Below are positions 1,779 to 13,135 of a stretch of 64,000 nucleotides of DNA, piece by piece. Position 1 is the stretch's first letter; each line of letters opens with the position of its first letter. The notes under the pieces are model-generated. The model made no database searches. It saw only the letters and a list, made by a program, of their open reading frames with translations, and was not told where the DNA came from. A program made the position numbers and the translations under genes. The stretch spans positions 531,231 through 595,230 of the forward strand of contig CBDBNP010000007.1 in the NCBI GenBank assembly GCA_965207865.1, given 5' to 3'. Source of the stretch: Dehalococcoidia bacterium. Its GTDB lineage: Bacteria; Chloroflexota; Dehalococcoidia; Lucifugimonadales; UBA3495.

Positions 1779-2036
1779 TGTTAACTCGCTCCACCTTTGG
1801 GAACTCTCTAGACCAAATAGTAGCTGTTGATCAAGAGGAACAGTGTTGACAGCATACACCCAAGTGCTAGAGTAGCATTCAATCAGTCTGAGAGGGTGAG
1901 ACCTACCTCAACTCGGTGCAAGCGTACTGGTACACGTCGCGATTGTTCATTCGGCCTCGCCGCTGAGTTGTGCAGAATTTCTCCAGTCCTTGGGGAGGAA
2001 ACTGAACAAACCATTTGCTGTAAGGAGCAAGCCCTA

Positions 2037-2774
2037 ATGACCTCTCGTGCAGCTCAAGATTCCTATGATTTGGGAATGGAATTCTTCGAGAGCGGCAACT
2101 GGGACCTTGCCATTGCCAACTTTACAAACTCCATCAATTTCGTCAGCAATAATCCGGACGTATACCATCGTCGTGGTGAGGCATTTTTCTCTAGAGGCGA
2201 CTACGGCGATGCCATAGACGACTATGATCGCGCTATCAATTTAGACGCCAACCGTGCCATATTCTGGCTGCACCGGGGATGGGCGTTCCATAACATTGCG
2301 CTCTATGACCCCGATTACATAATGACGAGAGACTGGATCGGAGAACGGAGATGGGTTGTAGACCGCGGAGACGTAGATTCCCTTAACAATCAGGCCCTTT
2401 CTGACATCAATAACTCACTCCGTCTCGACCCTCTGAACCACACCGCCTGGCACAACCGAGGCTGGTTGCATTTCAACGTTGGAAACTATCAGCAGGCCAT
2501 TGATGATTGCAATCAGGCGATCGAAATCGACCCCAACATTTCTGGCACCTGGAACAATCGGGGACTAGCCTACCAGGGATTGAACAAATTTAATGAAGCC
2601 TTTCGGGATTTTGACCATGCCCTTTCACTCAGTCCCAATGATCAATTAGTTACAGCCAACAAACGTAGAGCCAACCGAAATCGATGGGGTAGACGATACA
2701 AGCGATTCAAGAATATAAGCCTCCTCACAATTATCGTGATCGTGGCGATTCTCATAGCTATTTCAGCGTTTTAA
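2037..2774 (+). CDS. TPR-repeat protein with C-terminal hydrophobic tail anchor
   Basis: ORF track gives 1827..2774. ATG at 2037 has an AAGGAG RBS. Several TPR-like units (GDYGDAIDDYDRAINLD, GNYQQAIDDCNQAIEIDP, NKFNEAFRDFDHALSLSP). Basic stretch followed by ISLLTIIVIVAILIAISAF at the C-terminus. Visibly AT-richer than its neighbours. Confidence 0.75.
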   Translation: MTSRAAQDSYDLGMEFFESGNWDLAIANFTNSINFVSNNPDVYHRRGEAFFSRGDYGDAIDDYDRAINLDANRAIFWLHRGWAFHNIALYDPDYIMTRDWIGERRWVVDRGDVDSLNNQALSDINNSLRLDPLNHTAWHNRGWLHFNVGNYQQAIDDCNQAIEIDPNISGTWNNRGLAYQGLNKFNEAFRDFDHALSLSPNDQLVTANKRRANRNRWGRRYKRFKNISLLTIIVIVAILIAISAF

Positions 2775-4536: not shown

Positions 4537-4662
4537 AAGTAAGCTGGCTACTTTAGGTACATTCGTATCTACCGACCTTCCCTGAATAGTGGGCATCTTC
4601 AACGAGCGTTGAGGGTGCCCACTGCTACAATGTGTTCATAACTACGAGCGAGCGATAGTGCC

Positions 4663-4911
4663 ATGATAGATTGGAGCGGATGTCCTGCTATCGAGAGCGA
4701 CCCGGAAAAGATGAGCGGGGCCTGGGTGTTCACCGGCAGTCGAGTGCCCGTCTCTGCCCTGTTCGGCAACTTGGAAGAGGGCGCCACTGTGGCTGAATTT
4801 TTGGACTGGTTCGAGGGCGTTGAGGAATGGCAGGTCAAAGCCGTCCTTGAATACCTCATCAATGACTTGGAGGCCCACCTCCCTCACGTCAAGCATGCGA
4901 ATATAGCTTGA
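4663..4911 (+). CDS. DUF433 domain protein (antitoxin-like small HTH protein)
   Basis: 82 aa. PEKMSGAWVFTGSRVPVSALFGNLEEGATVAEFLDWF matches the DUF433 pattern (G.P.i.GTRi.v..l...l..G.s..ei...yp). Confidence 0.7.
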   Translation: MIDWSGCPAIESDPEKMSGAWVFTGSRVPVSALFGNLEEGATVAEFLDWFEGVEEWQVKAVLEYLINDLEAHLPHVKHANIA

Positions 4912-5274
4912 CAACTGCACCCCACCCCACCGTTGGCTAGGACAACACGGCATCCTATTCCCCCTCCCCGGATGGTTCGCAAACTCATAGGATGTGTTCT
5001 GGTACCGATTTGATCTGAACTCGGAGAATCTCTAGTTGTAGAAACCGCAGGCGGCAGCACAGCCCTAACCAAGCATTGTTCTTGGAGTTCTCTTTGCCCA
5101 ACCAATTAGTACAAAGTCATCACCTTCGTTCTTCGAAGAACGGCGAATGAATTTCAGCTTCTAGAATCGTCTAGATCCCCTCCCAACTTAGAATAACAAT
5201 TGAGTAGGTGGTAAAATGGAGTCTAGGATGAGTATTGTTAACGCCCTTGGATAACCGGGCGGTGAGGTGTTGCG

Positions 5275-6459
5275 ATGGGACAGGAAATTAATGGCAACGG
5301 TCTCGGAGCCGAGGATCGAAAGGAAGGCTATACGGAGGAACCTGAAAGAGATTTTCGGAAGAGGACTACCCTGGCACGTTCCTTCGCCTCCGTCAGCGCC
5401 CTGAACGATGTCAGCAGGTCCCTCGCACGCTCCTTCCCAGCCGTCAACATTGCAGGTGACCTTCAGCGATCCCTTGCTCCTTCGTTCCCAGCCGTCAACA
5501 TTGCAGTTGAGCTTCAGCGATCCTTTGCTCCTTCGTTCCCAGCTGTCAACATTGCAGCTGACGTTCGGCGGGCCCTCGCACCTTCGTTCCCAGCCGTCAA
5601 CATTGCAGTTGAGCTTCAGCGATCCTTTGCTCCTTCGTTCCCAGCTGTCAACATTGCAGCTGACGTTCGGCGGGCCCTCGCACTTTCGTTCCCAGCCGTT
5701 AACATTGCAGCTGGCTTTCGGCGATCCTTTGCTCCTTCGTTCCCAGCCGTCAACATTGCAGCTGACCTTCGGCGGTCCTTTGCACCTTCGTTCCCAGCCG
5801 TCAACATATTGGGAGACCTGAACCGTCGCCTGGCGCTCTCATTTCAATTCGAAGAGACTGGATGGTTCCCGCACAGTACTTTTCCCGCACAGATCTTCGA
5901 CGAAGTGCAGGATTATGCAGAGATTGACGAAGAGATACTAACTTATTACCGCAAGAATTGGATTGAAATTTGCAATGAAATCGAAAGCGAGCTTGCTGGA
6001 TATTTGATAGATGAGAAAGAGAAGAACGTATTAAGGCAAGCATTACGTGCACACAAAAATGGCCTGCATGATCTTGTGAGCCCTACATTGTTTACTTTGA
6101 TTGAGAGGGCAGTTCGTGTACATTTGAACGAGAACAAGATCGGCAACCTCTCAGTCAGAAATGAGATGACCAATAGGTTATCTGAGATACCCATTTCTGC
6201 GTTTCCAGATCGTTTAGTAGGCTACGTGGGTTATAGTCTATTCTCTCATCATTTATACCAGAGCATCCGGACGGACGATGACCGTGACTATTTCTCTAAG
6301 ATATCTATGCCAAACCGGCATGCAGTTATTCATGGATTATTTGATTACGAGGCTGAGAAAAGCAGTTTGAATTCCATCTTTATCGCTTGCTACGTATTTC
6401 AAATAATTACTTTGATTAAGATCCAAGAGATCAAAAGAGTTCTTGATAACAATACATAG
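5275..6459 (+). CDS. hypothetical protein: N-terminal 17-aa tandem repeats plus C-terminal HEPN-like (Rx4H) domain
   Basis: 394-aa ORF in an AT-richer islet. Residues 36-188 are nine copies of SFPAVNIAxxLxRSxAP. The C-terminal helical domain has LRQALRAHKNGLHDLVSPTLFTLIERAVRVHL and PNRHAVIHG (R-H-x3-H at 6316-6333), resembling the HEPN R[NHD]xxxH signature. Confidence 0.65.
   Translation: MGQEINGNGLGAEDRKEGYTEEPERDFRKRTTLARSFASVSALNDVSRSLARSFPAVNIAGDLQRSLAPSFPAVNIAVELQRSFAPSFPAVNIAADVRRALAPSFPAVNIAVELQRSFAPSFPAVNIAADVRRALALSFPAVNIAAGFRRSFAPSFPAVNIAADLRRSFAPSFPAVNILGDLNRRLALSFQFEETGWFPHSTFPAQIFDEVQDYAEIDEEILTYYRKNWIEICNEIESELAGYLIDEKEKNVLRQALRAHKNGLHDLVSPTLFTLIERAVRVHLNENKIGNLSVRNEMTNRLSEIPISAFPDRLVGYVGYSLFSHHLYQSIRTDDDRDYFSKISMPNRHAVIHGLFDYEAEKSSLNSIFIACYVFQIITLIKIQEIKRVLDNNT
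5380..5838 (+). repeat. 51-bp (17-codon) tandem repeat array, about 9 copies, inside the CDS
   Basis: Direct reading shows TTCCCAGCCGTCAACATTGCAG recurring every 51 bp. A 102-bp two-unit block (about 5506-5607) is repeated almost identically at about 5608-5709. Confidence 0.9.
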
Positions 6460-6661
6460 TAACGCAACTTGCTTAGATTCCCAATGGTTCTCAGGTATTG
6501 ATCTCTGCCTCAAATCCATCCGGCCACTTAGACATCCCTTTGCATACCGAAAGAGTTAACTCTCACAACGCAACACCGAACGTTGAAATGGCGGCCAATT
6601 ATTCCACCGTGTACAATACCCTCACCACCCAAGCACCCCAACCCCGACAGGAGGCCAACCT

Positions 6662-8013: not shown

Positions 8014-9537
8014 TCAGTCCGCCGCGGCACCCGCGCGCGCCTGTTGGCCGCCTTCACTCGTCGGCGCCGTCGGCGGCTTGTAGGGTCGGTGGAACGCCGC
8101 GATGATGGCGCCGATGGTCATGATTCCGACCACCGCCATCGCCGAGACCTGGAACCCCTCAAGGTGCAGCCGCTGCGACTCCGCCGGCAGCATAAGTCCG
8201 ATAGTCGCCGGCACGATCATGGCCACGATGAACGACGAAATCGTCGCGCCCGTCGCGTGTCCCATGTCCCGTGTCGTCTCCAGCATCCCGGAGGCGAAGC
8301 CCCGGTTCTCCGTCGGCAATGTGCTCATCACCGTCGCGTTGTTCACCGTGTTGAAGATGTTGGTGCCCACCGAGATCGGGAACAGCAGGAGCGGCAGCAA
8401 CCAGATGGAAACCGTCCCCGCGAACAGCGCCAGCAGCACGAACCCCGACGCGATGGACAGCATGCACGCCGTCCGCAGCAGCCGTGGGTTGAACTTGTCG
8501 TGGATGAACCCCGCTATGGCCGGTAGCCAGATGCCGAAGGACTGGTGCGGCAGCAGCACGTAGGTAACGAATATTGGCGACATGCCCAATCCCTCTTCGA
8601 TCATGATCGGCACCAGGATCATGGTCGCCATCATCGAGAGGTGGAACATCACGTTGGATATGATCGCCAGCGTGAAGTATTTCTGTCTGAAGTGCTGGAA
8701 CTCGACGAAGGGGTGCGACACTCGCCGTTCAACGAATATGAACACCACCAGCAGCGCGATGGTCAGCCCGTGCATCGGCAGGTGGTAGGTCAGCGCGTCC
8801 GGCGACGTGTACGACTCCTCGCCGCCGTGGATGTGGCTGCCCGACAGGATGAACACCGCCGACACCGCCACCAGCAGGATCGCCCCCAGGTAGTCGATGG
8901 GGTTCTCCTTGTCGACGATGGACTCGTTGTTTCGCCGCACCACTGGCATGCACGTCTTGATGACGATCAGGCCGATGGGCAGCATGGTCAGGAACACCAA
9001 CCGCCAGCCGGCGAAGCTTTCCCAGTTGGCCCACTGCAGCAGGACCCCAAAGAACGCAACGCCGATGAAGGTCCCGACGCGCGAGCCGGTGATGGGGAAG
9101 GCGTAGGCCCGGCCCCGCTCGCTGGGCGGGAATGCGAAGGCCAGCATGGCGTTCCCGTTGCCGTGTATCAGTCCGGCGCCGAACCCTTGCAGTCCTCTCA
9201 GCACAGTGACCTGTGTCAGGTCCTGGGCCGCCACGATTCCCACCGCGCCCACAGTGATGATGATCGTGCCGATGAAGAACACTCGTGGATGGCCGAACCG
9301 GTCGCCCAGCCTCGCGCCGAGGAACACGGTGCTGCCCAGCACCAGCAGGTTGGCGATGACGATCCAGGCCGCCTCGTCGACGCTGTAGCCGAAGTCGCGA
9401 GCGATGCTCGGCAGCGCCAGCGTCACCGGCAGGCTGGAGAGCTGCACCAGCAACTGCCCGCCGGTCATGGCGATCAGCACCTGGCGGCGCTCCACCGAGT
9501 TCACGACTTCCCTGTAGTTCTGAATAAAACCGGGCAT
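8014..9537 (-). CDS. MFS transporter (DHA2/EmrB-like, about 14 TM segments)
   Basis: 507 aa and highly hydrophobic. MFS motif GARLGDRFGHPRV after TM2. Confidence 0.85.
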   Translation of the reverse strand: MPGFIQNYREVVNSVERRQVLIAMTGGQLLVQLSSLPVTLALPSIARDFGYSVDEAAWIVIANLLVLGSTVFLGARLGDRFGHPRVFFIGTIIITVGAVGIVAAQDLTQVTVLRGLQGFGAGLIHGNGNAMLAFAFPPSERGRAYAFPITGSRVGTFIGVAFFGVLLQWANWESFAGWRLVFLTMLPIGLIVIKTCMPVVRRNNESIVDKENPIDYLGAILLVAVSAVFILSGSHIHGGEESYTSPDALTYHLPMHGLTIALLVVFIFVERRVSHPFVEFQHFRQKYFTLAIISNVMFHLSMMATMILVPIMIEEGLGMSPIFVTYVLLPHQSFGIWLPAIAGFIHDKFNPRLLRTACMLSIASGFVLLALFAGTVSIWLLPLLLFPISVGTNIFNTVNNATVMSTLPTENRGFASGMLETTRDMGHATGATISSFIVAMIVPATIGLMLPAESQRLHLEGFQVSAMAVVGIMTIGAIIAAFHRPYKPPTAPTSEGGQQARAGAAAD

Positions 9538-9661
9538 TCATTACCCCTGCGCCGGTCAATACCAGCCCGCCTACTCTATCACGAGGGCTGATGGCGTGCC
9601 ACCTCAAGTATCACTGACTGACGCTGCGGTTCTTTGTGCGGAAATATTAACCGGGACAAAG

Positions 9662-9688
9662 CAAAAAGAGCGGGCATTAATCCCGCCC
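9662..9688 (-). terminator. intrinsic terminator downstream of the PIN gene
   Basis: The minus strand reads GCGGGATTAATGCCCGC followed by TCTTTTTGC. Confidence 0.65.
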
Positions 9689-9709
9689 CCGTCTGATGCG
9701 TCTATTCAT

Positions 9710-10135
9710 CTACACCAGGGTGTCGAGTTGTGTTAAGAGTTTCTGCGGCGAGAGTATGGCAATCCCTCGGAACGGGTGCATCGACAGCAAGTCGTCGTCT
9801 CCGGTGATGATATGGGTGGCCGCGCCGCTTACTGCCAGTTCCAAGAACTTGTCATCCTTGGGGTCGCGACAGACAGCAATTTCCTCCGTAAAGTCCACAA
9901 GTTCCGAGGCCCCGACCAGTTCTTCAAGAAACCCCAGGCGTTCCTCTTCGTTCAGATATCTGCTGAAGCGCTGCCGAGCCATCACCTCATTCAGTTCGGC
10001 CAAGATAGCAAAAGAGGTAAGCAATCTGCCTTGCTCCAGAACCTGGTCCAAGACCTGACGTGGCGTGGACCGTCGCGACAGAACAGCGCTCACTACGACA
10101 TTAGTATCTAGCACCACCCGCAGATCACTCGTCAC
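9710..10135 (-). CDS. PIN-domain toxin (type II TA system)
   Basis: 141 aa. VVLDTNVVVSA (first acidic PIN residue), DPKDDKFLELA and ITGDDDLL are typical of the putative PIN-family TA toxin. Overlaps the upstream small gene by 11 bp. Confidence 0.85.
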   Translation of the reverse strand: MTSDLRVVLDTNVVVSAVLSRRSTPRQVLDQVLEQGRLLTSFAILAELNEVMARQRFSRYLNEEERLGFLEELVGASELVDFTEEIAVCRDPKDDKFLELAVSGAATHIITGDDDLLSMHPFRGIAILSPQKLLTQLDTLV

Positions 10136-10355
10136 GCAAAAGCGTCTCCAGAATCTCCGGCGTCAATCCACGTGACTCCGCCCTTTCGCTAATCTCATCC
10201 ATGACTGCCTGAAGCGTCTTGCCCGACGAGTCTGTCAATTCCTGCAATCGCAGGCTCAGCAAGAGCTGCAGCTTTCTCTTCTCGCTTGGCGACGCCTCGA
10301 CAAATGCCCGCGCCGCCCCTTCGTCCACCTCTATGGTGATGTTCGCTGTACCCAC
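10125..10355 (-). CDS. putative antitoxin partner of the PIN toxin
   Basis: The ORF track begins at TTG 10391. GTG at 10355 is preceded by GGAG at 8 nt, so the start is uncertain. Small acidic protein that overlaps the PIN start, the classic TA arrangement. Confidence 0.55.
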   Translation of the reverse strand: MGTANITIEVDEGAARAFVEASPSEKRKLQLLLSLRLQELTDSSGKTLQAVMDEISERAESRGLTPEILETLLRDE

Positions 10356-10439
10356 GACGTAAACTCCAAATATCCTCTGAAACACTCCCAAATGTGATCA
10401 GCCCGAACGCCCTGTATATCCCGCATAATACCATCAGGT

Positions 10440-11453
10440 TTATGGGCTACTAAAATTGATCTCCAACCTCCCATCTACCACATTCGCAACTCTGTTCTCA
10501 CCACCTAGATCCTCTTGCAAACTCACCCAACTATTATGGAAGAATCCCTTATCCGCCCTTGTAAATTTAGGTCGTCCCCTCAAGAGCTTAGAAAGTACCC
10601 TCGCGGTGTCAGCAGAAGCTGTACCTTGCAGCTGTTTCCACTGAACGTATGCTAGGAGATCGGCCAATTGCAGTGGCGGGACCTCTTTGGAAGAGTCGAA
10701 TTCAATGTCGGCAATTCTCGTTTCGCCCTGACTAAAGAGCGGCACCCAGACTCTACCGACATAGTCCTTTACATTTGCTTCCAAGGACGTCTGCCTGTCC
10801 AATACGAAATGTATGGCGGAACCCTCGGGTGACAAGCCAAGCGATTCTTCAAGAATTAGATTTAATGCCATCAGATACGTACGGGATGGTGCTCCCGAAG
10901 TCTTAAATTTTCGCCTTATTACTGGTTTAAGAGCTTCAGAATCTTGGCTTCTCTCGAGTGTCCAGTGAGATTCAAGGTGCCCACCAGTAAAATATCTCCT
11001 TTGTTCATCTGTAAGGTCGTAAAACGCCTCTGTCTCTACTACGCCACCAATGGGGAAGAGCATGCACGACTCTGCGGCCGCGACTAGCTCCTCCAAAAAA
11101 CAAACTCTTCGTTCAACGGACCATCTCCGAAAAGGATTGCTAGTACTTCTCTTCCGGTTCGGCTGGAAGAAGTCAATCGCGTGGAAAGTTTCCACGCCAT
11201 AATGCCGTAAAGTAGTGCCCCAAAGTCCGTTGAATCGAAGCCATTCTGATTTAGTAGAAACATGCCCAGACATTATTGAATACTTTGCAGAGCGATGTAT
11301 GCCACTTTCGTCTGCGAAGGCCCAGAGATCCCCCACTTCAGATGATGGTTGGTCTCGGTGCATGTACTGTGAATTCTCTGAGTCAAAAGCTCGAGATTTA
11401 TCGGGAGTCTTGATGAACTCACCTCCCTCACTTCTTACAACAAAACATTCCAT
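10440..11453 (-). CDS. DUF3800 domain protein
   Basis: 337 aa. AFADESG near the N-terminus and PLQLADLLAY near the C-terminus are the DUF3800 hallmarks. AT-richer than the backbone. An alternative start is M31 (11363). Confidence 0.75.
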   Translation of the reverse strand: MECFVVRSEGGEFIKTPDKSRAFDSENSQYMHRDQPSSEVGDLWAFADESGIHRSAKYSIMSGHVSTKSEWLRFNGLWGTTLRHYGVETFHAIDFFQPNRKRSTSNPFRRWSVERRVCFLEELVAAAESCMLFPIGGVVETEAFYDLTDEQRRYFTGGHLESHWTLERSQDSEALKPVIRRKFKTSGAPSRTYLMALNLILEESLGLSPEGSAIHFVLDRQTSLEANVKDYVGRVWVPLFSQGETRIADIEFDSSKEVPPLQLADLLAYVQWKQLQGTASADTARVLSKLLRGRPKFTRADKGFFHNSWVSLQEDLGGENRVANVVDGRLEINFSSP

Positions 11454-11814
11454 CTAGAGGTGAACTCCGCTAGAGCTCACCATCGTCTCCACCCAATCCA
11501 ATCTCCTCAACCGTTCTGCCAGCTAAATGTCCCTAAGTAACTACGCGCCGACTTTGCCTCGACACATGGTAGCCCCATTGGCTCTGCAGCTTAATACACT
11601 GTTGGACCCCCTGCATACTTCACAACCGCCCCCAACCGCTCCTCCTCAACCTCCTGGCCACACTCCCCCAAGATATCCATCCGCAACCCGGCGGAGTTCC
11701 ATCGAAGAAGCGGGATTGCAGCACCGCGGTCTCCGCCGATATACCCAGCTCCCAATCAGAAATGGCGCCTTTCAGTTTGGTACCCATGCTAACGGAGTTA
11801 GACATCCCGAAGCT

Positions 11815-13042
11815 CAGGGTCATTCGATTATTGATCGAAAATGGGGATGGGGTGTCTTGGGGATGATGATGAGGGAGTAGTAAGGTAGGGGGAGTGAGTG
11901 TGAGAGGGGTGTGTGGAATGGGCAATGAAAGGGAGAATATCGGGGGCCTGTCGTTACTGGAGGTCATGGGGAGATTGCCGGACCCTCGGAGCGGGCATGG
12001 CCGGCGCCATCCTCTGGGGGCGGTTCTTGGGTTGGCGGTGTGCGCCATGCTGTGTGGCGCCCGCAGCCTGTATGCCATCAGCCAGTGGGGCCGGGATCAG
12101 GGCCGGGAGGTATCGGAGGCACTGGGCTTCACCCGGAGTCGTACTCCCTGCGTATCCACGTTGCATCAGGTATTCAGCCGGCTGGACCGGGAGGCCTTCG
12201 AGCTGCTGTTGGGTCAATGGCTAAAGGAGCGGGGACTGGAGGCTGGGGAGGCACTGGCCATAGACGGAAAGAGATTGCGTGGAATTCACGGAGAGCAATT
12301 GCCTGGGGTCCACTTGGTGGCGGCCTATGCCCACCGGTCGGGTATCGTGGTGGGTCAACAGGCAGTGGCGCACAAGAGGAATGAACTGGAGGCGGTACAC
12401 CGGCTCTTGGATCGGTTGGACCTGCAAGGCCAGGTGGTGACGGGAGACGCCCAGTTCACCCAGCGGAAGGTGTGCCGCAGTATCGTGGCAAAAGGGGGCA
12501 CTACCTCCTCTCGGTAAAGGACAATCAACCCACCTTGAAACAGGACATTGCCGACCTCTGGGAGGAGGCTATGGCACCGCAGGCAGAGCAGGTAGGCCGG
12601 CACGGGGACCGGGTGGAGGTGCGGCGCATCTGGGTGTCGGATGAACTGGCAGGCTACAGCGACTGGCCCCACCTGGCCCAGGTGTGTCGTGTGGAACGTA
12701 TCGTCCACCACAAAGGCAAGACCCGCCGGGAACTCGCGTATGCCGTAACCAGCCTCGGTCCCAATGAGGCTGACCCTGCCAGGCTGCTGCAACTGTGGCG
12801 GGGTCATTGGGGGATCGAAAACCGGGTGTTCTGGGTACGGGATGTGACCATGGATGAGGACCGCTGCCAGGTAAGATCGGGTTCAGCCCCTCAAGTGATG
12901 GCCGGACTGCGCAATCTGGTCATCAGTCTCTTGAGAATGGAAAAGGTGCCCAACATCGCCGCCGCACTCCGTCGCTGCGCCACCAGACCCTCCTATCCCT
13001 TGTCTCTCGTCGGCGCCCCTACCCAATAATCGAAAGACCCTG
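11815..13042 (+). mobile_element. ISAs1-family insertion sequence (1228 bp) with IRs and a 10-bp target-site duplication
   Basis: IRL is CAGGGTCATTCGATTATTG (11815-11833). The IRR reverse complement is CAGGGTCTTTCGATTATTG (13024-13042), an 18/19 match. It is flanked by direct repeats TCCCGAAGCT at 11805-11814 and 13043-13052. Confidence 0.85.
11894..13029 (+). pseudogene. ISAs1-family (H-repeat-associated) DDE transposase, frame broken at an A4G5 run
   Basis: ORFs 11894..12517 and 12472..13029 together resemble one ISAs1 transposase (LPDPR, AIDGK, ...GHWGIENRVFWVRDVTMDED). The frames join as IVAKGG/HYLLSVKDNQ only with a -1 shift at GCAAAAGGGGGCAC (about 12487-12500). Confidence 0.8.
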
Positions 13043-13135
13043 TCCCGAAGCTAGACCCACCCACCCCAACCCCCCACCCTGCGCTATAATGGCCCCAACA
13101 TCCCCGGGCACCGAACGGGGTACAGGAGCGCGGCA

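What the first reader, a model, noticed from the sequence alone, without database searches (positions are those of the whole stretch)
5275..6459. Repeat-fused HEPN-like protein in an AT-rich islet (candidate defence or toxin gene of unknown type)
The C-terminal approximately 200 aa are helical. They contain LRQALRAHKNGLHDLVSPTLFTLIERAVRVHL and, near the end, PNRHAVIHG (R-H-x3-H at 6316-6333). This is the arrangement of HEPN RNase domains (Rx4-6H, often RNxxxH followed by G). The N-terminal half is nine 17-aa SFPAVNIAxxLxRSxAP repeats that I cannot assign to any family. The gene sits alone in a visibly AT-richer patch next to an orphan DUF433 gene. No MNT-type antitoxin partner is present. I do not know of this architecture having been described.
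Basis: partly seen in the sequence, partly recalled or inferred. Interest (0 to 1): 0.7.

Follow-up and report, generated by a model that had tools for sequence, protein, structure and literature searches.

The report
Solo HEPN-like RNase with hypervariable repeats
This gene encodes a partner-less protein whose conserved C-terminal half has the catalytic signature of HEPN RNA-cutting toxins and belongs to a large family that no database has catalogued, while its N-terminal half is a fast-changing array of short peptide repeats of unknown role.

Summary
ORF 5275..6459 (+, 394 aa) has a charged leader, nine in-frame 17-aa repeats (aa 36-188) and a 205-aa all-helical C-domain. It lies in a low-GC patch beside a DUF433 gene.

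The C-domain defines a large family that no library catalogues: 703 clusters at 50% identity, with no Pfam, NCBIfam, PADLOC or PHROGs model. E277, R348, H349 and H353 are each invariant in 133 of 133 diverse members.

These residues form the two HEPN signatures, Ex3[K/R] on one helix and R-[H/N]-x3-H-G just before the last long helix. They appear in the helix order described for HEPN. Eight of the top 50 Foldseek PDB matches are HEPN structures, but none is significant (E > 1). Profile searches, including hhalign against DUF86/HepT, found no HEPN link. I therefore rate the HEPN reading well supported but not proven.

No partner gene is conserved across about 60 distinct loci. Neighbours are often integrases, transposases, restriction-modification genes and other HEPN genes. 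The gene has 10-20 points lower GC than its flanks everywhere and diverges faster than they do. A single-protein defence or toxin RNase is the best reading.

The repeats occur only in the Dehalococcoidia subclade. They change unit and copy number between proteins whose C-domains are 92-100% identical, and they are predicted to be flexible. Their function is unknown.

The parts
5275..6459 (+). Whole gene: 394-aa repeat-plus-HEPN-like protein (the stop codon is included)
   Evidence: ORF list. Homologs in 13 clusters at 90% identity and 703 clusters at 50% identity.
5275..5379 (+). N-terminal charged leader, aa 1-35, predicted disordered
   Evidence: pLDDT 38-49 with no secondary structure. Comparable acidic leaders occur in L005, L008, L009 and L011.
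5380..5838 (+). Nine in-frame 17-aa repeats (aa 36-188), consensus SFPAVNIAxxLxRSxAP. The DNA array detected by TRF is 5434-5807 (51-bp unit, 102-bp super-unit).
   Evidence: pLDDT is 40-57 with short helices. The last unit continues into helix 176-195, where pLDDT rises from 57 to 85 as it approaches the C-domain.
5839..6456 (+). Conserved all-helical C-domain (aa 189-394). The HEPN-like core is approximately aa 247-394 (6013-6456).
   Evidence: pLDDT 94-99. The family profile covers this region in all homologs.
6103..6117 (+). E277-x3-R281 (ERAVR): the Ex3[K/R] motif on the helix spanning aa 265-284 (putative HEPN helix 2)
   Evidence: E277 is conserved in 133 of 133 members and R281 in 123 of 133. 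The motif definition comes from PMC3710099.
6250..6258 (+). H326-L-Y328 in the insert between putative helices 2 and 3
   Evidence: H326 is conserved in 123 of 133 members and Y328 in 132 of 133. PMC3710099 describes an alternative conserved His in this insert in some HEPN families.
6310..6336 (+). P346-N-R348-H349-A-V-I-H353-G354: an Rx4H motif with a polar residue after R and Gly after H, on short helix 348-353 before long helix 361-393
   Evidence: P, N, R, H and H are each conserved in 133 of 133 members and G in 131 of 133. Position 349 is N in P0002, P0006 and P0013.
4663..4911 (+). DUF433 gene. It is a neighbour only and is not part of the system.
   Evidence: PF04255, E 1.5e-14. It is absent from the syntenic locus L001 and from all other loci.
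4540..6606 (.). Variable low-GC islet between conserved flanking genes (FMN-dependent dehydrogenase on the left, NHL-repeat protein on the right)
   Evidence: blastn of the window against syntenic L001: flanks are 82-87.5% identical, the C-domain 64% and the repeats about 69%. The segment 4540-5367 has no counterpart in L001. GC profile.

Best explanation
The gene encodes a single-chain, partner-less member of a previously uncatalogued family within, or very close to, the HEPN superfamily.

Catalytic domain. The C-terminal ~205 aa form an all-helical domain. E277/R281 (Ex3R) on one helix, and N347-R348-H349-x3-H353-G354 at the end of the next core helix, would together form a HEPN-type active site. 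H326/Y328 from the intervening insert may contribute. HEPN RNases are metal-independent and normally become active when two Rx4H motifs come together in a dimer or higher oligomer (established knowledge; PMC3710099).

Inferred action. The protein would cleave cellular RNA such as tRNA, rRNA or mRNA, and so arrest growth. It would act as a single-protein abortive-infection or toxin gene carried in the accessory genome.

N-terminal half. The charged leader and nine 17-aa repeats are flexible and evolve fast. I infer that this half regulates or gates the RNase, for example by autoinhibition or by binding a trigger at several sites. This matches the usual Abi layout of an N-terminal sensor and a C-terminal HEPN effector, and the single-protein HEPN sensor-effector HepS.

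Shown: the family, the invariant motifs, the helix order, the absence of a partner, the mobile and defence-type contexts, the low GC and fast divergence, and the repeat hypervariability.

Inferred: RNase activity, toxicity, a defence role, and any role of the repeats.
For: - Motifs: R348, H349, H353 and E277 are each conserved in 133 of 133 members, R281 in 123 of 133 and G354 in 131 of 133.
- Agreement with the published HEPN definition (PMC3710099): Rx4-6H with N, D or H after the R; an Ex3[KR] acidic motif on helix 2; an insert between helices 2 and 3; the motif at the end of helix 3.
- Helix order in the model (pLDDT 94-99): helices 247-261 and 265-284 (carrying Ex3R), an insert (helices 294-302 and 314-327), helices 334-341 and 348-353 (carrying Rx4H), then helix 361-393.
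- Foldseek against PDB: eight of the top 50 matches are HEPN structures (5yep_B, 2hsb, 1o3u with TMt 0.50, 3o10_C, 1wol with TMt 0.47, 1ufb_A, 7ae6_B, 9oik_A HepS).
- No conserved partner gene in 76 loci, which form 60 distinct groups.
- Integrases lie near 8 loci. The nearest neighbours include DUF4145 and Abi_C (both HEPN families), a type ISP/IIG restriction enzyme, HerA, PD-T7-4, a resolvase and an S24 peptidase.
- P0044 lies between a C5-methyltransferase/Vsr module and a type IIG restriction enzyme. P0058 lies among transposases.
- L005 is on an integrase/AlpA/VapE island next to a cNMP-TIR gene.
- The C-domain has GC 0.40-0.52 against 0.60-0.67 for the flanks in all 11 Dehalococcoidia loci.
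- The gene is 64% identical to its syntenic counterpart, while the flanks are 82-87.5% identical.
- Precedent: HepS is a single HEPN protein that both senses infection and acts as the effector, without an antitoxin (PMC13043305).
Against: - No significant match to any HEPN family or structure was found.
  - Pfam, NCBIfam, PADLOC and PHROGs scans of the protein, of 133 members and of family consensus sequences gave nothing recurrent.
  - PDB sequence-profile searches gave nothing for the C-domain.
  - hhalign against a DUF86/HepT alignment gave probability 0.5%.
  - All Foldseek PDB matches have E > 1.
- A helical domain can resemble four-helix bundles non-specifically.
- There is no experimental evidence of RNase activity or toxicity.
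- Some loci, such as L002 (his operon and hisS on one side, an AP endonuclease on the other), are in housekeeping surroundings.
- The family consensus has no tblastn match in 72,556 plasmids or 50,697 phage genomes.
- The unusually many conserved His residues (H200, H260, H326, H349, H353) would also fit a metal site.
Confidence: 0.6

Rival explanations
1. The C-domain is not a HEPN RNase. It is a helical metal-binding enzyme or sensor that uses the conserved His/Glu cluster (H260, E277, H326, H349-x3-H353), in the manner of DinB/YfiT-type four-helix bundles with an H...HxxxH metal triad. The comparison with DinB comes from my own knowledge and was not tested.
For: Five conserved histidines and one invariant glutamate. 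H349-x3-H353-G resembles an HxxxH metal motif. No significant HEPN match was found by profile or structure.
Against: No DinB-like or other metal-bundle structure appears among the top 50 Foldseek matches, whereas eight HEPN structures do. Pfam DinB models did not match any of the 133 members even at E <= 10. The invariant N347-R348 and the Ex3R motif are explained by the HEPN reading and not by a His-triad site.
Confidence: 0.1
2. It is a HEPN-type RNase, but it serves a housekeeping or regulatory role (RNA processing or turnover, or stress response) rather than defence or toxicity.
For: Some loci lie among housekeeping genes, for example L002 next to the his operon and hisS. The window and L001 keep the gene at the same chromosomal position. 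No antitoxin is present. The family is absent from sequenced plasmids and phages.
Against: The distribution is patchy and contexts are unrelated between loci. The gene has low GC relative to the host in all 11 loci. It diverges much faster than its flanks. Integrases, transposases, restriction-modification genes and other defence genes are frequent neighbours. Five relatives are on IMG/VR viral contigs.
Confidence: 0.15
3. The repeat array has no function of its own. It is a tolerated slippage or recombination expansion of a flexible linker upstream of the functional C-domain. This concerns the repeats only and is compatible with the main explanation.
For: - Repeats occur in only 26 of 133 members, all from one subclade.
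- Unit length varies (10, 15, 16, 17, 18, 22 and 30-35 aa) and different segments are expanded in near-identical proteins.
- The repeat region has pLDDT 40-50.
- Units within an array are nearly identical at the DNA level, so the expansions are recent.
- The window unit is no more amphipathic than shuffled controls.
Against: - All periods are multiples of 3, and the reading frame stays open through the arrays in the window and in L002, L005, L006 and L008-L011.
- The 'SFPAVN/D' half of the unit is conserved between the window, L001 and L003/P0016, whose C-domains are only 60-64% identical. Within the window array this half carries only one synonymous change, while changes cluster in the other half.
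- Independent expansions recur in many lineages, which suggests that they are favoured.
Confidence: 0.3
4. The repeats are modular nucleic-acid-binding or lipid-binding helical repeats, like TALE/PPR repeats or apolipoproteins, and direct the RNase to a target RNA or to the membrane.
For: - The window array has a 34-aa super-unit made of two helices, with variable positions clustered in one half.
- The N-terminal part of the family profile weakly matches apolipoprotein A-IV (E 2.9e-4), apolipoprotein A-I and apolipophorin III.
- Several units have a hydrophobic moment above that of shuffled controls.
Against: - AlphaFold2 gives no confident solenoid (pLDDT 40-50).
- Unit length differs between close relatives, which does not fit a fixed repeat geometry.
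- Per-domain E-values of the apolipoprotein matches are 2-14, so they reflect composition or pattern.
- The window unit's hydrophobic moment equals that of shuffles (0.54 vs 0.52 +/- 0.12).
Confidence: 0.08

Closest known systems
HEPN superfamily RNase domains (Anantharaman et al. 2013, PMC3710099)
   Same: Rx4H motif with a polar residue after R and Gly after H. An Ex3R acidic motif on the preceding core helix. An insert between the two motif-bearing helices. An all-alpha domain of similar size. Frequent placement in the mobile or defence gene pool.
   Different: No significant profile or structure match to any described HEPN family. There is an extra conserved N-terminal helical sub-region (aa 189-246, with the GW[FLV]PH and YYRxNW motifs) and further conserved His/Tyr residues. 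Membership is inferred from motifs and topology, not shown statistically.
Single-protein HEPN abortive-infection systems: AbiJ-type proteins (N-terminal domain plus C-terminal HEPN) and HepS of prophage Gifsy-1 (PMC13043305; PDB 9oik)
   Same: One polypeptide with no antitoxin. A variable N-terminal part precedes a C-terminal HEPN-like effector. The genes are carried on integrative elements or defence islands. HepS is among the weak Foldseek matches.
   Different: The N-terminal part here is not a globular sensor domain. It is a flexible region that in Dehalococcoidia is expanded into tandem peptide repeats. No trigger, target RNA or phenotype is known. The Abi_C Pfam model does not match the family.
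HEPN-MNT (HepT/MntA, DUF86) type II/VII toxin-antitoxin modules
   Same: Small helical RNase with an Rx4H motif. Structures 5yep_B, 7ae6_B, 1o3u and 1wol are among the weak Foldseek matches.
   Different: No MNT partner in the window or conserved in the family. hhalign against DUF86 gave probability 0.5%. The protein is three times larger. The MNT fragment next to the L004 homolog is an isolated case.
Uncharacterized siphovirus protein A0A8S5NQ77 (BFVD predicted structure)
   Same: Best structural match: Foldseek probability 1.00, TM-score per target 0.61, rmsd 4.5 A over 208 columns. It is probably the same fold as the C-domain.
   Different: 14% identity, no annotation and no repeats. It gives no functional information.
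Exchangeable apolipoproteins (ApoA-I, ApoA-IV, apolipophorin III)
   Same: Tandem helical repeats punctuated by proline. There are weak HMM matches to the N-terminal part of the family profile.
   Different: This is similarity of pattern only. Per-domain E-values are not significant, and the window's repeat is not demonstrably amphipathic.

Membership tests
HEPN superfamily | Conserved Rx4-6H motif with a polar residue (N, D or H) immediately after R | tested here: met
   R348-[H/N]349-x3-H353. R, H349 and H353 are each conserved in 133 of 133 members in A3. Position 349 is N in P0002, P0006 and P0013. Definition from PMC3710099.
HEPN superfamily | Second conserved acidic residue upstream, typically within Ex3[KR], on helix 2 | tested here: met
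   E277 is conserved in 133 of 133 members and R281 in 123 of 133. Both lie on predicted helix 265-284.
HEPN superfamily | Four-helix up-and-down core with an insert between helices 2 and 3, and the motif at the end of helix 3 before helix 4 | tested here: inconclusive
   The order of predicted helices fits. Eight of the top 50 Foldseek PDB matches are HEPN structures, but with E 2-6 and TM-score per target at most 0.50. The query model included the disordered half of the protein.
HEPN superfamily | Significant profile match to an established HEPN family | tested here: not met
   No HEPN Pfam model matched any of the 133 members or the consensus sequences, even at E <= 10. hhalign against DUF86 gave probability 0.5%. 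Only one HEPN family was tested by profile-profile comparison.
HEPN superfamily | Metal-independent RNase activity, with dimerisation forming a composite active site | not testable with these tools
   This needs biochemistry or a multimer model.
HEPN-MNT toxin-antitoxin module | Adjacent MNT nucleotidyltransferase gene | tested here: not met
   There is none in the window. No conserved neighbour was found across 76 loci. One isolated MNT fragment lies downstream of the L004 homolog.
Abi-type single-protein HEPN defence (AbiJ-like or HepS-like) | Solo gene with an N-terminal non-catalytic region and a C-terminal HEPN, located in defence islands or mobile elements | tested here: met
   The architecture is shown. 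Integrases, transposases, restriction-modification genes and HEPN neighbours are shown. This is a layout criterion only.
Abi-type single-protein HEPN defence (AbiJ-like or HepS-like) | Protection against phage, or toxicity on activation | not testable with these tools
   This needs experiments.
DUF433-associated toxin-antitoxin pair | DUF433 gene conserved next to the toxin gene | tested here: not met
   DUF433 is present only in the window. It is absent from syntenic L001 and from all other loci.
Solenoid nucleic-acid-binding repeats (TALE, PPR, PUF type) | Fixed repeat length that forms a confident helical solenoid | tested here: not met
   pLDDT is 40-50 over the array. Unit length ranges from 10 to 35 aa among relatives.

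The most novel reading that the evidence does not exclude
The repeat array is a rapidly evolving, multivalent gate for a HEPN RNase. Each unit would be a copy of the helix that docks onto the catalytic domain. This idea rests on the last unit, which runs into helix 176-195 where model confidence rises as it approaches the domain. Arrays of such units would either hold the enzyme off or bind a repetitive invader structure and cluster the RNase into active oligomers. Lineage-specific expansion and replacement of units would then retune trigger specificity, which would be a new way of diversifying an immune sensor in bacteria.
Probability: 0.15. Interest if true: 0.75.

Novelty: new variant of a known kind. 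Interest (0 to 1): 0.45.

Why it matters
If the HEPN reading holds, this adds a large family of single-protein RNase effectors (over 700 clusters at 50% identity, spread through soil, freshwater and marine metagenomes) that current defence and domain catalogues miss.

The Dehalococcoidia branch also offers a natural experiment. Nearly identical catalytic domains carry very different repeat arrays, so one can test whether short peptide repeats can tune or gate a toxin.

The family would also give a handle on mobile and defence gene content in Dehalococcoidia, a group that is poorly studied and largely uncultivated.

Tried and rejected
- Conserved partner or antitoxin. I clustered ORFs within +/-4 kb across 15 and then 76 loci. 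I also scanned 107 nearest neighbours against Pfam and PADLOC. There is none. The small upstream ORFs in L003, L004 and L005 are the protein's own N-terminus, split off by frameshifts or late start calls.
- DUF433 as partner. It is present only in the window.
- Curated libraries. Pfam, NCBIfam, PADLOC and PHROGs gave nothing for the protein, for 133 members or for consensus sequences. The PDC-S70 hit (E 0.037) did not recur.
- PDB by sequence or profile. No C-domain hit was found.
- First AlphaFold2 model, built with 14 sequences. It was poor (pLDDT 67) and its Foldseek matches were meaningless.
- hhalign against single DUF4145 and other neighbour sequences, and against a DUF86 alignment. All were negative.
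- The inverted repeat bracketing the gene (5266-5283 and 6560-6577). It is no better than shuffled sequence, and no homologous locus has one.
- Amphipathic-helix reading of the repeats. The result was mixed, and the window unit equals shuffled controls.
- Rfam. The only match is a glutamine-riboswitch hit far below threshold on the opposite strand (20 bits against a 35-bit cut-off, E 0.6), which I take as chance.
- Sigma-70 promoter and terminator scan. No promoter was found, and the one terminator-like site is within chance expectation.
- Plasmid and phage collections. tblastn of the family consensus found nothing.
- Source names. Members are called only 'hypothetical protein'.
Full report
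**1. Observation**

The ORF at 5275..6459 (+) encodes 394 aa exactly as quoted. Tandem Repeats Finder reports an array at 5434-5807 with a 51-bp unit (7.3 copies, 84% matches). It also reports a 102-bp higher-order unit (92% matches, score 613).

At protein level there are nine 17-aa units starting at aa 36, 53, 70, 87, 104, 121, 138, 155 and 172, and the first is degenerate. R348 and H353 lie at 6316-6318 and 6331-6333.

GC falls to 0.40-0.43 over the C-terminal half against 0.60-0.70 in the flanks. The repeat segment itself is 0.57. The upstream ORF 4663..4911 is DUF433 (PF04255, E 1.5e-14).

**2. The family**

No Pfam, NCBIfam, PADLOC or PHROGs model matches the protein or its C-terminal half. 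A word-indexed search found 13 unnamed homologs at 43-64% identity.

An exhaustive HMM search with the C-domain profile found much more: 703 clusters at 50% identity with E <= 1e-3, of which 243 have E <= 1e-30. Typical length is 260-320 aa.

In an alignment of 133 full-length members the invariant residues are W229, E277, P346, N347, R348, H349, H353, Y358 and N366. Residues H260, R281, H326, Y328 and G354 are conserved in at least 90% of members.

Scanning all 133 members against Pfam (E <= 10) and PADLOC (E <= 1) gave no recurrent family. Sources name members only 'hypothetical protein'.

Near relatives come from Dehalococcoidia MAGs. More distant ones come from a Methylovirgula MAG, five IMG/VR contigs and about 90 soil, freshwater and marine metagenome contigs.

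**3. Is the C-domain HEPN?**

The reference analysis (PMC3710099) defines HEPN by four features:
- an Rx4-6H motif with N, D or H after the R;
- a frequent upstream Ex3[KR] motif on helix 2;
- an insert between helices 2 and 3;
- the motif placed at the end of helix 3, before helix 4.

With 133 sequences, AlphaFold2 models aa 190-394 at pLDDT 94-99. The helix order is:
- helices 247-261 and 265-284, the second carrying E277-x3-R281;
- an insert with helices 294-302 and 314-327, carrying H326/Y328;
- helices 334-341 and 348-353, carrying R348-H349-x3-H353-G354;
- a long helix 361-393.

Both sequence signatures and the topology therefore fit.

Foldseek against PDB gave no significant match (best E 1.8). 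However, eight of the top 50 matches are HEPN-domain structures: 5yep_B, 2hsb, 1o3u (TMt 0.50), 3o10_C, 1wol (TMt 0.47), 1ufb_A, 7ae6_B and 9oik_A. From my own knowledge, not a count, HEPN chains are a small fraction of PDB entries, so this is far more than expected by chance. The disordered N-terminal half of the query probably depressed the scores.

The best match in the viral structure library is an unnamed siphovirus protein (probability 1.00, TMt 0.61).

Against this, every sequence-profile test was negative:
- PDB profiles found nothing for the C-domain.
- Consensus sequences found nothing in Pfam.
- hhalign against a 35-sequence DUF86/HepT alignment gave probability 0.5%. I built that alignment from an annotated MNT-DUF86 pair.

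My conclusion is that the domain is HEPN-like by motifs and topology, and that membership is not statistically proven.

**4. Partner genes and context**

ORF clustering within +/-4 kb found no neighbour shared by unrelated loci, first across 15 loci and then across 76 loci that form 60 distinct groups. The most frequent neighbour is a tyrosine integrase, seen near 8 loci.

A Pfam and PADLOC census of 107 nearest neighbours is heterogeneous. It includes two DUF4145 and one Abi_C protein (both HEPN families), a type ISP/IIG restriction enzyme, HerA, PD-T7-4, ABC-3C, a resolvase and an S24 peptidase.

Individual loci:
- L005 lies on an integrase/AlpA/VapE island beside a cNMP-TIR gene.
- L003 and L004 lie among transposases.
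- P0044 lies between a C5-methyltransferase/Vsr module and a 1339-aa type IIG enzyme.
- P0058 lies among transposases.
- L002 lies in housekeeping surroundings.

The 'small upstream ORFs' at L003, L004 and L005 are the protein's own N-terminus.

In the window, the locus is syntenic with L001: 3-dmu-9_3-mt, FMN dehydrogenase, the gene, an NHL-repeat protein, a 67-aa ORF and an MFS transporter. L001 lacks DUF433. Flanks are 82-87.5% identical, but the C-domain is 64% and the repeats about 69% identical.

In all 11 Dehalococcoidia loci the C-domain has GC 0.40-0.52 against 0.60-0.67 for the flanks. The family consensus has no match in PLSDB plasmids or INPHARED phages.

**5. The repeats**

Only 26 of the 133 members carry clear tandem repeats, and all are among the closest relatives. 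The units differ between lineages. Examples are:
- SFPAVNIAADLRRSFAP (window)
- SFPAVNALGNLNKTLER (L001, 13 copies)
- SQVAQSVTAANRLLAS
- DVQKPLVSTGLSRMF
- LAESVLPTAKFMESVNFG
- NRLNRLQDSV
- LNTFPSALSE

Periods are 10, 15-18, 22 or 30-35 aa, so the DNA period is always a multiple of three. Many units share a loose pattern, hydrophobic-x-R-x-hydrophobic-x3-hydrophobic-x-P. Non-expanded members show one to three degenerate copies.

Among proteins whose C-domains are 92-100% identical, the N-regions are only 36-89% identical, because different segments were expanded.

Within the window array the SFPAVNIA half carries a single synonymous change, while replacements cluster in the other half. The SFPAV[N/D] half is also kept in L001 and L003/P0016, whose C-domains are only 60-64% identical. 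This argues for some constraint on the unit.

AlphaFold2 gives pLDDT 40-50 over the array, with short helices and no solenoid. Confidence rises only where the last unit runs into helix 176-195 next to the C-domain.

The N-terminal part of the family profile weakly matches apolipoproteins (ApoA-IV, E 2.9e-4, with non-significant per-domain E-values). Hydrophobic-moment tests are mixed, and the window unit equals shuffled controls.

Frameshifts separate the repeats from the C-domain in L001, L003 and L004. All three are low-coverage long-read assemblies, so sequencing error is as likely as real inactivation.

**6. Mechanism**

The most likely reading, at about 0.6 confidence, is a single-protein HEPN-type RNase of the accessory genome. 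It would act as an abortive-infection or toxin effector. Its flexible N-terminal region would regulate it.

This follows the known Abi layout of an N-terminal sensor and a C-terminal HEPN (PMC3710099). It also follows HepS, a single HEPN protein that senses a phage tail-tip protein and cleaves tRNA anticodon loops (PMC13043305).

RNase activity, toxicity, a defence role and any function of the repeats are inferred, not shown. The rival readings are a metal-binding non-HEPN bundle, a housekeeping RNase, functionless repeat expansion, and targeting repeats. They are weighed in the Rival explanations section.

**7. Novelty and score**

The catalytic domain belongs to a known kind, HEPN-like solo effectors. 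It forms a large family that is absent from Pfam, NCBIfam, PADLOC and PHROGs.

I found no description of hypervariable, lineage-specific tandem peptide arrays fused to such a domain. That search was limited and does not prove absence.

I rate the finding a new variant of a known kind, with interest 0.45. A new HEPN family alone would be routine for specialists. The repeat hypervariability on near-identical catalytic domains is the unusual and testable part.

Noticed in passing
window 9537-13124: This segment is absent from the syntenic locus L001 and has lower GC than its surroundings. It carries a PIN_3 toxin-like gene (9710..10135, -), a DUF3800 protein (10440..11453, -) and a frameshifted ISAs1-type transposase (11894..12517 and 12472..13029, +). 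It is a second small mobile islet.
   Followed up: partly
window 1827-2774 (+): A TPR-repeat protein sits in another low-GC patch (about 1800-2800). It is only 68.8% identical to its L001 counterpart, while the adjacent flanks are 87% identical. It is a second fast-diverging low-GC gene in the same neighbourhood.
   Followed up: partly
L001 7163-8663; L003 7666-8807; L004 5180-6489: In three homologous loci the repeat region and the C-domain are in different reading frames. All three come from low-coverage long-read assemblies (6x-14x). I could not tell whether these are sequencing errors or real inactivation.
   Followed up: partly
L004 6502-6819 (+): An uncalled MNT-type nucleotidyltransferase fragment (PF01909, E 1.5e-10) lies 13 bp downstream of the family member. 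No DUF86 partner is visible. This is an isolated case among the loci.
   Followed up: partly
L017 5050-5847; L022 6649-7305: DUF4145 proteins, which belong to a recognised HEPN family, are the immediate neighbours of family members in two unrelated loci. This hints at clustering of HEPN genes in defence islands.
   Followed up: partly
window 5266-5283 and 6560-6577: An 18-nt imperfect inverted repeat (83% complementary) brackets the gene. It scores no better than shuffled sequence, and no homologous locus has such a bracket, so I take it as chance.
   Followed up: yes
window 4912-5274: A 363-bp spacer lies between DUF433 and the gene. It has no convincing ORF. DUF433 has no adjacent PIN-like partner here, so it looks like an orphan (partner expectation from my own knowledge). 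I did not test the spacer for remnants of a degraded toxin gene.
   Followed up: no
L106 1-13148: The distant family member P0044 sits in a dense defence island. The island holds HATPase_c_3 proteins, a C5 DNA methyltransferase, Vsr, and a 1339-aa MmeI/Eco57I-type restriction-modification enzyme, together with several unannotated genes.
   Followed up: partly
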